A stretch of DNA of 64,000 nucleotides, from the sequence record NZ_CP081674.1. The stretch is one strand, 5' to 3'. A program made the position numbers. Numbering within the stretch: the stretch's first letter is position 1; each line of letters begins with the position of its first letter. Shown here one piece after another: positions 36,001 through 39,000 of the stretch. The DNA comes from a plasmid.

Positions 36001-39000
36001 AACCACGCCTGTCGTTGTTGCGTTTGCGGCGGCTGCGGGTTCTGGCTGCAGTTCGAGATGGCGTTGAACGGAAGGCATTAGCGGCAGACCTCATCAAGTC
36101 GATCGCCCCAGCGGACAACTTCGCCCCGGAGCTTGTCGAGCTGGTCGTTGGGGAGCTCACGGGTGTAGGCGTCCCCCAACGCAATCCAGGCGTCGATGTA
36201 GTGAGACGTTGCCTCTTGGACATCGGCCGGGGTGGCTGGCGGGGCGTGATTACGCATGTACTCGATCTCGATCATCAACACCGTTGAAAAGGTCGAGAGC
36301 GCCCCGGCATGTTCGGGTGAAACCCGGTTGCCCAACGTCGCCATCAGTTCCCTGTGTACGCCGCCGAGAGGTTGATCCACACTTACGCTCGCGTCGCAGG
36401 CTTCCTTCTTCGCCGCGGCGATCTGTTCTGGGGTGTAGGTCGGTGGCGGCGCGACCATCGTGGTTGTGGTCGCCGGCGGCGCAGGCCTCGTCAAGTTGAT
36501 TGCGGTCATGATGATCGCCGCGATGCCGAGAAGGCACGCCGCCGCGCTCATGGCGAACACCCAGCGACCCCCGCCTCGTCCGCTGCTCTTGCCTGGTTCA
36601 GGCAGGGGTGTTGGAACGGTCTGGGGCGAACCGGTTGGAGGTGGCGGCGGTTGCGGTGCCGCTGAGGCCGGCTGGGTGAGGGTTGCGCCGGGCCTCGCCC
36701 ATGCCGCATCGGGACCGGGCGCAAATGCCTGTCCGTGCTGCTGCGGGTGCGGCTCACTCACCTTCTCAGCCTAAACCGCAGCGCAGACATGCGGCTACAA
36801 GTAAGTCCGCATCCGAGTAGACATGCCTTCCGCAAATGCCCTACAAACCCATCGCCAGCTAATCGGGCAGATCACCGTGCCGGTAATGTTCGCGCCGATA
36901 TTCCGCACCAATTCGAGCACTCAGCAAATGGCCTTGACCGTAGGCGTTCACACCAGTGTCAGCCACATCCAGCGCTCAGGTGAACGGCGCCGCATGGCGT
37001 GCACAAATCCGTTGAGTCCTCCGTTGAATCTGGCGATCACCGGCAATCGATCGCCTCCCTGGTGTAGCGCAGCGTCCAAGATATTTTGCTTTGACAGGCG
37101 TTCGCTGGTGCTCCCGAACTGTGCCCCGCACTCTTGGCATACAAACGGCCCGAAGACGACGGGAGTGTCTGGAGCGTCAACGTCAACAAAGTGCGCTCGC
37201 TTGAGATGCTCGTTGGTGATGACATGTGGACCGGTGTCGAGGCCAACGTGGTCGAGGATCTCGAGCACTTCATCGGCAGAGGCGTACCAACCCGGCAGCC
37301 CTGGCTTCCACAACGCACCGTCGTTGCTGTACTCGCTCAGATCCATCCATTTCGGCAACAGAGCGACGTAATCGTCGGTGACTCCGAGCCCACGCATCTC
37401 CTCCGAGACCAGGACGGTGCCGTCGGCGGCGTGCGTTTCTTCCCACAGCCCGTAGTAGCGGTAGGGCCAGCATTCTTGGTTCTGCTGGCGCCGGTCGAGC
37501 ACTACTGCGCGGTCGATGACGGCGGTGATAATCAGCGGGTGTGCGCTGGCGGTGTAGACGCTGCCGATTTTCGGATGGTTGAAGTCCGGATCCGGTTCGA
37601 GCTGGCCTTGCGGCTCGACGCTATACACGTCGCCGGGAATCTCATGTCCGTCTTCGTTGACGTAACGAGCGGCATAGCCTCTCGCTGAACCCAGATGGGT
37701 GGTGCAGTACACCAGGTCCGGGCGATATTTGGGTTTGGTCATCGCGCGCAGTCCCGGAGAGTGTGCGTAGGCGCTGGTGTAGTCGAAGCCCAGATGGGCT
37801 GCGGGATAGATGATGTCGCCGGGTTGCTTGCCGGGAATTCCGCCGTGGTACAGGCGAGTTTCGGACATCGCGTCAAACCTCGTCAAGCTCGTCGTCGTAC
37901 TCCTCGGCGATCGTGATGGGCACTGCGGCATGTTCCTCGGCAGCTGCTGTCACAGCCGATTTCAGGGCGGTGTTCAGCAGTTCCTCAAGTCCCTCGTGGG
38001 TGTATCGAACCGTGCAGCCCTCAGCCAGCGACAGTGAAACCAGTCGTCCTCTGGCGTCCACGGACAGCTCAACATCGCCGTCCCCTGCGGTCACGTCAAT
38101 GCCGATACTGTCCCATTCGGCGCGAAGCTTGCTCAGCACGTTGCTGATGCGCTCGACCCGCTGAATCATCTGTCTGCTGAACTCGGCGTCGGCTTCGTAG
38201 CCTGGGTATTCGTAGACGGTCACGATTCGTCGCCCTTCGGCAGATCAATGCGTCGGCGACGGGTGACGGTGACCGCGGTCGTCGGAGTGGCTTTGACTTC
38301 TGCTGCCCTCTTCTGTTCGCCAGTGGGGTCATCAGCTTGCTCGGTATGACGGCGCGGCACCTGGCCCTTGACCATCTCCGAGTTTGGCTCGGTGGGCAGG
38401 TGAATGGACTTGTCAGGTTCCTTGACCGGCCGCGCTCCCCCGCCGCCACCACCCATGCCAGCGCCCGCCATCGGCGGCATCATCATCGGCATGCCGCCCG
38501 CTGCGGGTCCGGCGGCCGTCGCGCCGACCGCAGGCGCCGCGGCGCTGTTGATCGTCGGTGTAGGACCGGCAGGTCCGCCCATCGCGAGCATGTTGCCGCT
38601 TGCGGGCGACAGGGGGCCAGGTGCTCCACCGGCGGGTTCGGTCCCTCCACCGCCTCCACCGCCGCCTCCAGAGGACAAGCCGCCGAACGAGTCGGGTTCC
38701 AGTCCAGATGTGTCGAGTTCGCCGAGTTCGGGTTCGGCCAGTCCTTCAGTCAATCCCTGCACCGCTTGGGTCGCTTGGGAGGCAGCCGACTGGACCTGCT
38801 GTCCGATGGCCGACGGGATGCTCGTCACTGCGCCGAGCGCACCACCCAACGCGCCGGCCAGCATCGTGGGCAGCATCGCAGCCATCGGTGCCATCTGGCT
38901 CACCATGTCGCCCTGTCCTTGTCCAGCCAGGGCGGGATCGCTCGTCGGCAGACCGTCTGATCCCAGCTCTGCACCCGCGAGCGCAACGTCGTCACCGGGC

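What the first reader, a model, noticed from the sequence alone, without database searches (positions are those of the whole stretch)
36948..37868. Arr-like ADP-ribosyltransferase domain protein inside the Esp accessory gene block
The N-terminal ~140 aa share the spacing and residues recalled for rifampin ADP-ribosyltransferase Arr, including the YHG motif and the IVEPTGPF-like YSVEPQGQLEPDPD strand. They are fused to a ~170-aa C-terminal region carrying a CQEC motif. An ART-fold enzyme sitting between espL-like and membrane-protein genes of a type VII system could be a secreted ADP-ribosylating effector or toxin. It could also be a plasmid-borne rifamycin-inactivating enzyme with an extra domain. 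Either would be notable.
Basis: partly seen in the sequence, partly recalled or inferred. Interest (0 to 1): 0.7.

Follow-up and report, generated by a model that had tools for sequence, protein, structure and literature searches.

The report
Arr-like ADP-ribosyltransferase on mycobacterial plasmid
This is a real, uncharacterised enzyme gene: a distant, enlarged cousin of the rifampicin-inactivating enzyme Arr, carried by mycobacterial conjugative plasmids and, in shorter form, by phages. Nothing tested here shows it to be a secreted toxin or a rifampicin-resistance gene.

Summary

The gene does sit in the Esp block of a complete plasmid ESX locus. Homologues, however, occupy at least six other positions on mycobacterial plasmids and islands. 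Shorter relatives occur in Gordonia phages (phrog_17296), other actinobacterial plasmids, and GNAT or DUF5131 fusions. No type VII secretion signal, immunity gene or ADP-ribose-removing enzyme was found.

Best reading: an intracellular accessory transferase of mobile elements whose substrate is unknown and is not rifampin. A new variant of a known kind; moderate interest.

The parts
36948..37868 (-). Complete gene: a 306-aa protein plus stop codon, with three modules (transferase core, middle module, C-terminal zinc-knuckle domain)
   Evidence: ORF list. Start supported by homologue alignment and by the sequence upstream. Full-length conservation in 24 mycobacterial protein clusters.
37503..37868 (-). 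Residues 1-122: Arr-like ADP-ribosyltransferase core of the H-Y-D type
37845..37847 (-). Codon of H8 (in YHGG), equivalent to Arr-ms H19, the NAD+-binding His at the end of strand beta1
   Evidence: Aligned to Arr-2 H22. H in 169 of 170 aligned relatives, with G9 and G10 in 170 of 170. Follows strand E5-7 in the model.
37707..37709 (-). Codon of Y54, equivalent to Arr-ms Y49
   Evidence: Aligned to Arr-2 Y52. Lies in strand E53-56. Y in 158 of 182 relatives, otherwise S, H or F.
37590..37592 (-). Codon of D93 (in E-P-D-P-D), equivalent to Arr-ms catalytic D84 of the DPN motif
   Evidence: Aligned to Arr-2 D91. D in 175 of 179 relatives, P94 in 157 of 179, D95 in 168 of 179.
37314..37502 (-). 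Residues 123-185: family-specific acidic middle module (WPY..., DGT..S..MR..G, LLPKWMD). It is also present in about 190-aa stand-alone relatives.
   Evidence: Many roughly 170-230-aa hits of the exhaustive profile search cover query positions about 5-180. Conservation counts. Residues 167-176 are among the most conserved. Net charge -7.
36951..37313 (-). Residues 186-306: C-terminal domain found only in this family. Order: beta-hairpin, helix, hypervariable hairpin (216-245), CxxC knuckle, four helices ending in R-x-P-x-R-W.
37128..37139 (-). C244-Q-E-C247, a putative zinc knuckle
   Evidence: C244 in 55 of 56 and C247 in 56 of 56 relatives aligned at these positions. Weak matches to the first half of C2H2 fingers and to Elf1 zinc ribbons.
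37062..37064 (-). Codon of H269 (HQ motif in helix 260-271), a candidate third zinc ligand. H215 (37224-37226) is a candidate fourth.
   Evidence: H269 in 54 of 54, Q270 in 51 of 54, H215 in 52 of 58. Ligand geometry was not checked because no model coordinates were available.
37878..37881 (-). GAGG Shine-Dalgarno-like element 9 nt upstream of the ATG, inside the end of the YbaB-like gene
   Evidence: Read directly from the sequence. The stop of the upstream gene is at 37873-37875, 4 nt before the ATG, which suggests co-transcription and coupled translation (inference).
37873..38223 (-). Context: upstream YbaB/EbfC-family (EspL-like) gene, 116 aa
   Evidence: Pfam YbaB_DNA_bd E 2.7e-8. The same gene order is found in M. 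houstonense, in M. wolinskyi-type contigs, and, diverged, in M. abscessus subsp. bolletii 50594 plasmid 2.
35141..36761 (-). Context: three small downstream genes (227, 114 and 198 aa). The first and third each have one strongly hydrophobic segment. They are followed by an EspK-like gene (32621-35098) and eccB.
   Evidence: ORFs. Kyte-Doolittle 19-residue maxima of 2.28 and 2.37. No Pfam hits for the three small genes. The 32621-35098 product hits DUF5632, and its orthologue carries Pfam EspK_C. Synteny is shared with L001 and L013.

Best explanation
The gene encodes an active, intracellular, NAD+-dependent mono-ADP-ribosyltransferase of the Arr-like H-Y-D type. It is an accessory cargo gene of mycobacterial conjugative plasmids and islands.

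Shown here:
- The fold, its closest relative (Arr), and the presence and conservation of H8, Y54 and D93.
- The three-module architecture.
- Restriction to mobile elements, and the absence of a conserved partner gene.

Inferred mechanism: H8, Y54 and Y65 hold NAD+. D93 stabilises the oxocarbenium ion after nicotinamide leaves, as proposed for Arr D84. ADP-ribose is then transferred to a nucleophile, most likely a hydroxyl. The substrate would sit in a cleft built from the variable beta2-beta3 loop (residues 35-47), the shortened beta5-beta6 loop, and the middle and C-terminal modules. These modules take the place of Arr's small rifampin cap and therefore set a different specificity.

Target class: I favour a diffusible small molecule other than rifampin that harms the element or its host. 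That would be antibiotic or chemical-defence neutralisation, as already proposed for the phage relatives. A specific host protein comes second. In this window the gene is probably co-expressed with the esp/ESX-P operon.
For: Fold and catalytic residues.
- hhalign probability 95.5%.
- The secondary-structure positions of H8, Y54 and D93 match the description of the Arr HGT, Y49 and D84 sites in PMC6092378.
- Conservation across 189 relatives: H8 169/170, Y54 158/182, D93 175/179. This argues for a working enzyme.

Mobile-element cargo.
- 24 full-length clusters, the named ones all mycobacterial, and 462 representative relatives.
- At least seven different positions on plasmids and islands.
- Gordonia phage homologues among early and DNA-metabolism genes, and phrog_17296.
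- Other actinobacterial plasmids.
- Only 5 Mycobacteriaceae plasmid records carry it, two of them cut by insertion sequences, against 88 plasmid records with EccB. It is therefore dispensable.

Tolerated by the carrier cell. No conserved immunity or antitoxin neighbour (and the context calls). No macro or ARH domain among the scanned window ORFs. No PADLOC hit.

Small-molecule leaning.
- The closest characterised enzyme modifies a small-molecule hydroxyl.
- Relatives are fused to GNAT acetyltransferases.
- The protein is acidic to neutral rather than basic like a nucleic-acid binder.
- Iyer et al. 2022 (PMC9503650) place the Gordonia and Microbacterium phage enzymes in the rifampin-transferase family and predict small-molecule modification, possibly of antiviral compounds.

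Operon. The gap to the upstream gene is 4 nt and a GAGG precedes the ATG.
Against: - No enzymatic or binding data exist for any member, so the substrate class is inference only.
- A zinc knuckle next to a hypervariable hairpin is more typical of macromolecule recognition than of a small-molecule pocket.
- Roughly six of ten contexts place the gene co-oriented inside, directly after, or two to three genes after plasmid ESX operons. That is more often than an unrelated cargo gene might be expected to show, although the plasmids share ancestry.
- Y54 is replaced by S or H in some clades.
- Phage and anti-CRISPR transferases that modify proteins also lack immunity genes, so the absence of a partner does not discriminate between target classes.
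Confidence: 0.5

Rival explanations
1. Host-factor modifier. The enzyme ADP-ribosylates a specific protein (or RNA or DNA) of the host or recipient cell. It would help the plasmid or phage establish itself, either by disabling a defence system, like the anti-CRISPR transferase AcrIF11, or by re-programming the host, like T4 Alt and Mod. The zinc-knuckle domain and its hypervariable hairpin would recognise the target.
For: - Distribution is limited to mobile elements, including early regions of Gordonia phages next to a DNA methylase, HNH and RecT.
- The hypervariable hairpin 216-245 sits beside the invariant CxxC.
- No immunity gene is needed for such enzymes.
- In this window the gene is co-expressed with the transfer machinery.
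Against: - The closest relatives by sequence and structure (Arr, Tpt1) do not act on proteins.
- The protein is acidic, which is unfavourable for nucleic-acid binding.
- The short phage versions lack the C-terminal domain altogether.
- No target candidate emerges from gene neighbourhoods.
Confidence: 0.25
2. First reader's reading 1. The protein is a substrate of the plasmid type VII (ESX-P) system, exported as an ADP-ribosylating toxin or effector, possibly into recipient cells during conjugation.
For: - The gene lies inside the Esp block, translationally coupled to the EspL-like gene.
- A 39%-identical homologue holds the same position in M. abscessus subsp. bolletii 50594 plasmid 2.
- Other homologues sit directly after eccE (L017) or two to three genes after it.
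- Plasmids of this kind need both type IV-like and type VII loci for transfer (PMC4173767).
- Some type VII substrates are exported through partner proteins.
Against: - No WxG motif. The transferase fold starts at residue 4, so there is no N-terminal helical targeting domain.
- The three YxxxD/E matches are not conserved as motifs and do not follow a helix-turn-helix.
- No conserved immunity gene.
- Homologues lie after parA/parB-like genes, next to a small FtsK/SpoIIIE gene in the M. abscessus chromosome, and elsewhere.
- Shorter relatives are phage-borne.
- The gene is absent from most ESX plasmids.
Confidence: 0.13
3. First reader's reading 2. It is a plasmid-borne rifamycin-inactivating Arr with an added domain.
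For: - Arr is the closest characterised relative, and the H-Y-D triad is intact.
- One NCBI record names a homologue (P0016) 'NAD(+)--rifampin ADP-ribosyltransferase'.
- A conserved M158-R159-x-L-G helix in the middle module faintly recalls Arr's M[RK][DE]xL cap. This is my own observation and was not tested.
Against: - NCBIfam rifampin_ARR equivalog: 14.3 bits against a cut-off of 130. Pfam: 19.8 against 25.
- The alignment ends at Arr-2 residue 121, before the rifampin-capping helix alpha2.
- No M[RK][DE]xL motif and no SN[YF]/SH[F] motif.
- The beta5-beta6 'rifampin-binding loop' is three residues shorter and diverged.
Confidence: 0.07
4. It is a toxin of a toxin-antitoxin or abortive-infection type system, or a catalytically dead relic.
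For: - Many bacterial transferases of this superfamily are toxins (DarT, ParT, Tre1 and RES appear).
- VapBC or Phd/VapC pairs lie next to some homologues.
- Two plasmid copies are truncated by insertion sequences.
Against: - The adjacent toxin-antitoxin pairs are complete on their own and are not conserved partners.
- No PADLOC match.
- Catalytic residues and both extra modules are strongly conserved over 24 full-length clusters.
Confidence: 0.05

Closest known systems
Arr, rifampin ADP-ribosyltransferase (Arr-ms, PDB 2HW2 and 9IAF; Arr-2; Pfam PF12120; NCBIfam NF033144)
   Same: - H-Y-D triad at equivalent positions (H8, Y54, D93 in a D-P-D/N motif).
- The helix after the Tyr strand is retained.
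- Common in Actinobacteria.
   Different: - Twice the size (306 against about 145 aa).
- Below both curated family thresholds.
- No rifampin-cap helix motif M[RK][DE]xL and no SN[YF] motif.
- A longer, variable beta2-beta3 loop.
- Two added modules.
- Carried by plasmids, islands and phages, not a chromosomal housekeeping or resistance gene.
Actinophage Arr-like transferases (phrog_17296; for example Gordonia phage EMsquaredA gp68, annotated 'ADP-ribosyltransferase'; assigned to the rifampin-transferase family by Iyer et al. 2022, PMC9503650)
   Same: The closest sequence family for the catalytic core (E 1.1e-18 over residues 4-130; 33-38% identity by tblastn). Same YHGGVPG, VY-TT and VEP-G...DPD motifs, and also on mobile elements.
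   Different: The phage proteins are single-domain (about 113-143 aa). They lack both the middle module and the zinc-knuckle domain. No member has been tested experimentally.
Tpt1/KptA RNA 2'-phosphotransferase
   Different: It belongs to the H-H-h clade, has an extra winged-helix RNA-binding lobe, and shows no detectable sequence similarity to this protein.
AcrIF11 (anti-CRISPR ADP-ribosyltransferase) and T4 Alt, ModA and ModB
   Different: Different clades and motifs, and known protein targets. The similarity here is limited to the shared fold.
Mycobacterial type VII toxins (CpnT/TNT; EatA, PMC13444075)
   Same: An enzyme encoded near ESX genes. TNT also consumes NAD+ (from my own knowledge).
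   Different: EatA combines an N-terminal domain bound by small Tap partner proteins with an immunity protein (EatI); TNT likewise has a cognate immunity factor (own knowledge). None of these features is present or conserved here.

Membership tests
Arr (rifampin ADP-ribosyltransferase) | ADP-ribosyltransferase fold closest to Arr | tested here: met
   [not shown]
Arr (rifampin ADP-ribosyltransferase) | H-Y-D catalytic triad (Arr-ms H19, Y49, D84) | tested here: met
   H8, Y54 and D93 align to Arr-2 H22, Y52 and D91. They are conserved in 169/170, 158/182 and 175/179 relatives.
Arr (rifampin ADP-ribosyltransferase) | Score above the curated family thresholds (Pfam PF12120 gathering score 25 bits; NCBIfam NF033144 equivalog 130 bits) | tested here: not met
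   19.8 bits and 14.3 bits.
Arr (rifampin ADP-ribosyltransferase) | Rifampin-binding cap: C-terminal helix alpha2 with M[RK][DE]xL and hydrophobic pocket residues (F39, M126, L130, L133, A139, I141 in Arr-ms; PMC6092378) | tested here: not met
   The profile alignment ends before alpha2. There is no M[RK][DE]xL match in the protein. A structural counterpart could not be checked without model coordinates.
Arr (rifampin ADP-ribosyltransferase) | SN[YF] or SH[F] motif in the beta2-beta3 loop | tested here: not met
   No regex match. The loop is longer, variable and modelled with low confidence (residues 35-47).
Arr (rifampin ADP-ribosyltransferase) | Inactivates rifamycins | not testable with these tools
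   Needs an MIC measurement or an in-vitro assay.
phrog_17296 / actinobacterial mobile-element Arr-like transferases | Significant full-length match to the family profile | tested here: met
   E 1.1e-18, residues 4-130 against profile positions 3-116 of 125. tblastn hits in 16 Gordonia phage records.
phrog_17296 / actinobacterial mobile-element Arr-like transferases | Single-domain architecture of about 125 aa | tested here: not met
   The protein has 306 aa and two further conserved modules.
Mycobacterial type VII (ESX) substrates | Helix-turn-helix carrying WxG and/or a C-terminal YxxxD/E export motif | tested here: not met
   No WxG. The three YxxxD/E matches (Y69, Y139, Y195) are not conserved as motifs and lie in loops or strands of the model.
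Mycobacterial type VII (ESX) substrates | Consistent genetic linkage to an ESX locus | tested here: inconclusive
   Inside the Esp block in two lineages, and directly after or two to three genes after eccE in four sampled contexts. Elsewhere in at least four other contexts. Absent from most of the 88 plasmid records that carry EccB.
Mycobacterial type VII (ESX) substrates | ESX-dependent export | not testable with these tools
   Needs secretome analysis of wild type against an eccC mutant.
Transferase toxins with cognate immunity or antitoxin (DarTG, ParST, Tre1-Tri1, polymorphic toxins) | Adjacent conserved immunity, antitoxin or ADP-ribose-removing gene | tested here: not met
   All-against-all comparison of neighbours in ten loci finds no shared partner. 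No macro or ARH domains in the scanned window ORFs. No PADLOC hit.
C2H2-type (beta-beta-alpha) zinc finger | C-x2-4-C knuckle followed by a helix with two His 3-5 residues apart | tested here: inconclusive
   C244-x2-C247 and H269 are invariant. The spacing from C247 to H269 is 21 residues, and no second His follows in the helix. H215 (52 of 58) may be the fourth ligand. Only weak profile hits.

The most novel reading that the evidence does not exclude
The enzyme is a conjugation-coupled effector. It would be made together with the plasmid's ESX-P and type IV-like transfer machinery and exported by the type VII system, despite lacking the canonical signal and perhaps via a partner such as the adjacent Esp proteins. 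It would act on or in recipient or competitor mycobacteria, ADP-ribosylating a target there. That would make it the first ADP-ribosylating type VII effector in mycobacteria and would link plasmid ESX systems to enzymatic manipulation of the recipient.
Probability: 0.1. Interest if true: 0.85.

Novelty: new variant of a known kind. Interest (0 to 1): 0.45.

Why it matters
Arr is the only characterised member of this branch of ADP-ribosyltransferases, and it is a clinically relevant rifamycin-resistance enzyme in mycobacteria.

This work shows that Arr has a large, untested sister family of 462 representative sequences. The family lives almost entirely on actinobacterial plasmids, islands and phages. 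In mycobacteria it has acquired a domain with no solved structural relative.

- If the substrate is an antibiotic or a chemical anti-plasmid or anti-phage compound, these genes are a mobile, unrecognised resistance or counter-defence reservoir. Hosts include M. abscessus and members of the M. fortuitum group.
- If the substrate is a host protein, the family is a new host-manipulation tool of mycobacterial mobile elements.

Either way, current annotation is uninformative or misleading: most records say 'hypothetical protein', and one says 'rifampin ADP-ribosyltransferase'.

Tried and rejected
- **Nucleotide search of plasmids.** Megablast of the 5-kb region against PLSDB found nothing. The nearest DNA relative is a M. 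houstonense DSM 44676 contig found through protein patterns.
- **Single-sequence and profile searches of PDB sequences.** These gave only spurious-looking C2H2 finger hits and E 0.1-1 hits to Arr. The relationship became significant only with profile-profile and structure comparison.
- **GNAT half of the fused relatives.** It matches only generic acetyltransferases, so it gives no substrate clue.
- **Longer ORF starting at 37931.** Rejected on homologue starts.
- **Apparent C-domain-only proteins** (P0146, P0159, P0177, P0218). They look like fragments or mis-called starts, not a stand-alone domain.
- **Nucleic-acid target via the zinc knuckle.** Considered and down-weighted, because all three modules are acidic to neutral.
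- **Promoter and terminator scan.** No more sites than in shuffled sequence.
- **Canonical arr elsewhere in the window.** None found.
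Full report
**1. The observation**

Window 36948-37868 on the minus strand is an intact ORF of 306 codons. Its ATG lies 4 nt after the stop codon of the upstream gene and 9 nt after a GAGG. A longer reading from 37931 is possible on paper. Homologues, including a 91%-identical 306-aa protein, begin at the same Met.

**2. Is it an Arr-like ADP-ribosyltransferase?**

Single-sequence tests are weak.
- Pfam Arr-ms: E 9e-4, 19.8 bits against a gathering score of 25.
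- NCBIfam rifampin_ARR: 14.3 bits against 130.
- PDB sequence searches: E 0.1-1 to Arr.

With more information the relationship is clear.
- An alignment of 21 family members compared with an alignment of 16 Arr sequences gives hhalign probability 95.5%, E 1.4e-8 over 102 columns.
- The next matches are Tpt1 (6.6), PARPs, pertussis-like and diphtheria toxins, Rhs transferase toxins, AcrIF11 and DarT. Most of the significant list consists of folds of this superfamily.

H8, Y54 and D93 align with Arr-2 H22, Y52 and D91. These correspond to Arr-ms H19, Y49 and D84, the residues shown by mutagenesis to be critical (PMC6092378 and PMC8120803). In the model they sit at the end of beta1, in a strand, and just after a strand. 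That placement matches the description of the Arr residues in PMC6092378.

Across 189 aligned relatives the counts are H 169/170, GG 170/170, Y 158/182 (otherwise S, H or F), and D 175/179. This is an Arr-like H-Y-D transferase that has been kept functional.

**3. Why it is not Arr itself**

- Both curated thresholds are missed.
- The profile alignment stops at Arr-2 residue 121. That is before helix alpha2, which caps rifampin and carries the M[RK][DE]xL motif and most of the hydrophobic pocket (PMC6092378).
- Neither that motif nor SN[YF]/SH[F] occurs in the protein.
- The beta2-beta3 loop is longer, variable and of low confidence (residues 35-47).
- The beta5-beta6 'rifampin-binding loop' is shorter.

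One caveat: a conserved S155-x-x-M-R-x-L-G helix in the middle module faintly recalls the Arr cap. Without model coordinates I could not test whether it occupies the same place.

**4. Architecture**

The exhaustive profile search found 462 representative relatives (158 at E of 1e-10 or better). They fall into several forms.
- About 113-143-aa single-domain phage proteins.
- About 190-aa proteins covering query positions 5-180, that is the core plus the acidic middle module (WPY, DG[TY]..S..MR..G, LLPKW).
- About 280-330-aa proteins with the C-terminal domain as well.
- About 380-410-aa proteins with a C-terminal GNAT acetyltransferase, one of them from Microbacterium.
- In four IMG/VR contigs, the core is inserted into a DUF5131 (phage Gp37/Gp68) protein.

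**5. Genomic context in the window**

The window is a pRAW-like conjugative element. It carries:
- a VirB4-like AAA_10 ATPase (2101-4668), a TcpC-like protein, and DUF2637;
- a complete ESX locus (EccB, EccC, PPE, EspG, an EspI-like ATPase, EccD, MycP, EccE);
- ParA, an SLT transglycosylase, NlpC/P60, WhiB, and a type II DNA methylase.

Plasmids of this kind need both the type IV-like and type VII loci for transfer (PMC4173767).

The gene order in the Esp block is: DUF4226 protein, EspC-like, DUF2694, PE/PPE fusion (EspB-like), YbaB/EspL-like, the transferase, three small proteins (two with a strongly hydrophobic, membrane-like segment), EspK-like, EccB. A contig of Mycolicibacterium houstonense DSM 44676 carries the same block at 98% protein identity.

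**6. Context of the homologues**

| Position of the homologue | Where |
|---|---|
| Esp block, same position | M. wolinskyi-type contigs (67% identity) |
| Esp block, same position | M. abscessus subsp. bolletii 50594 plasmid 2 (39% identity, CxC variant) |
| Directly after eccE | two lineages (L017, L044) |
| Two to three genes after eccE, before the type IV-like genes | L009, L045 |
| After parA and a parB-like gene | M. abscessus pGD21-1 and M. salmoniphilum |
| Next to a 279-aa FtsK/SpoIIIE gene and a Tn7-like element | M. abscessus chromosome |
| Other island or plasmid positions | several |

Two plasmid copies are truncated by IS21 or IS3 elements.

In PLSDB, 88 plasmid records encode an EccB homologue. 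Only five Mycobacteriaceae plasmid records contain the transferase. It is therefore an accessory gene, not a core component of the type VII or transfer machinery.

No neighbouring gene is shared across contexts. No macro or ARH domain was seen among the window ORFs scanned. No PADLOC model matches.

Outside mycobacteria, relatives lie on Curtobacterium, Streptomyces, Rhodococcus and Pseudonocardia plasmids. They also occur in 16 Gordonia phage records, among RecT, HNH, DNA methylase and RusA genes.

**7. Interpretation**

What the evidence supports is a working, cytoplasmic, Arr-like mono-ADP-ribosyltransferase carried as optional cargo by actinobacterial mobile elements. The carrier cell tolerates it without an antidote. 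The mycobacterial form has gained two modules that most likely reshape the acceptor site.

For the target, I favour a small molecule other than rifampin.
- The nearest characterised enzyme modifies a small-molecule hydroxyl.
- GNAT fusions resemble bifunctional antibiotic-modifying enzymes (inference from my own knowledge).
- The protein is acidic to neutral.
- Iyer et al. 2022 independently placed the Gordonia and Microbacterium phage enzymes in the rifampin-transferase family. They proposed modification of antibiotics or of diffusible antiviral compounds (PMC9503650).

A specific host protein target, in the manner of AcrIF11 or T4 Alt, is nearly as plausible and would better explain the zinc knuckle and the hypervariable hairpin.

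The secreted-toxin reading has no positive support. It cannot be dismissed, because the gene is repeatedly co-oriented within or just after plasmid ESX operons. That pattern may reflect co-expression with the transfer machinery or shared plasmid ancestry. The rifampicin-resistance reading fails every Arr-specific test except the fold and the triad.

**8. Novelty and score**

- The catalytic fold and its Arr affinity are known kinds.
- The phage relatives have been noted computationally (PMC9503650) and annotated by phage genome annotators.
- The searchable literature yielded no description of the mycobacterial three-module family, its fold-orphan C-terminal domain, or its placement in plasmid ESX loci. 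Papers on ESX plasmids do not mention a transferase.

I rate it a new variant of a known kind with moderate interest (0.45). It is a well-defined, experimentally tractable orphan enzyme family next to a clinically relevant one. At present there is no evidence for an unusual mechanism.

Noticed in passing
window 12101-12787 (-) and 14676-15497 (+), with 12829-14679 (+) between them: A Pycsar-type anti-phage system appears to be carried by the plasmid. It has a PycC cyclase (PADLOC E 1.2e-97; Pfam Guanylate_cyc) and a PycTM effector (PADLOC E 2.5e-27; Pfam PycTM). The two are separated by a 616-aa gene with an IF2_N domain that overlaps the cyclase start. The cassette lies just beyond the eccE end of the ESX locus.
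   Followed up: partly
L025 1856-3067, L028 9223-10467, L035 4798-5985, L036 9431-10609 (IMG/VR contigs): The Arr-like transferase core (RYYHGGVPGL...DPD) is inserted into the middle of DUF5131 (phage Gp37/Gp68) proteins. Pfam DUF5131 gives E 1e-94 spanning the insertion. This is an unexplained domain-in-domain architecture.
   Followed up: partly
P0216, P0225, P0245, P0270, P0289 (about 383-406 aa; P0270's cluster-mate is from Microbacterium sp. SL62): Relatives are fused to a C-terminal GNAT acetyltransferase and carry a basic N-terminal tail. They may be bifunctional modifying enzymes. The GNAT half matches only generic families.
   Followed up: partly
L024 and L033 (IMG/VR) phage-type homologues: Some short phage versions carry an H-x3-D-G-C-P-x-C-E-A-R-K-x-H insertion, a possible zinc knuckle, in the beta2-beta3 loop. 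This is the loop that forms the NAD+/substrate entrance in Arr.
   Followed up: no
L040 6001-6456 (M. dioxanotrophicus plasmid) and L041 8001-8753 (pCBMA213_1): Two plasmid copies of the gene are truncated, one by an IS21 element at the 5' side and one by an IS3 element at the 3' side. The gene is therefore dispensable for those plasmids.
   Followed up: yes
L038 5707-6687 (M. abscessus subsp. bolletii 50594 plasmid 2): A diverged family member sits in the same Esp-block position. It has C-S-C instead of CxxC, E-H-K instead of HQ, and a roughly 45-residue N-terminal extension whose sequence suggests a basic helix. A similar extension is seen in P0020.
   Followed up: partly
window 49530-50600 (-): A 356-aa protein combines a sigma-70 region 4 helix-turn-helix with a TnsA-like endonuclease N-terminal domain. 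Its role is unknown.
   Followed up: no
window 36762-36947: A 186-nt non-coding gap follows the transferase gene, whereas the neighbouring esp genes abut or overlap. It might hold an internal promoter or RNA element. The simple promoter and terminator scan found nothing there.
   Followed up: partly
L001 13691-15082 (M. wolinskyi-type contig): In the otherwise syntenic wolinskyi-type locus, an IS605 OrfB/TnpB (Cas12f-like) gene and a 133-aa ORF are inserted between the EspK-like gene and eccB. They are absent from the window.
   Followed up: no
L004 7058-7897 (M. abscessus chromosome): The M. abscessus chromosomal homologue directly follows a 279-aa FtsK/SpoIIIE-domain protein and lies beside a Tn7-like module (Mu-transposase C-terminal domain, TniB). 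This suggests an integrated actinomycete-type conjugative element.
   Followed up: no
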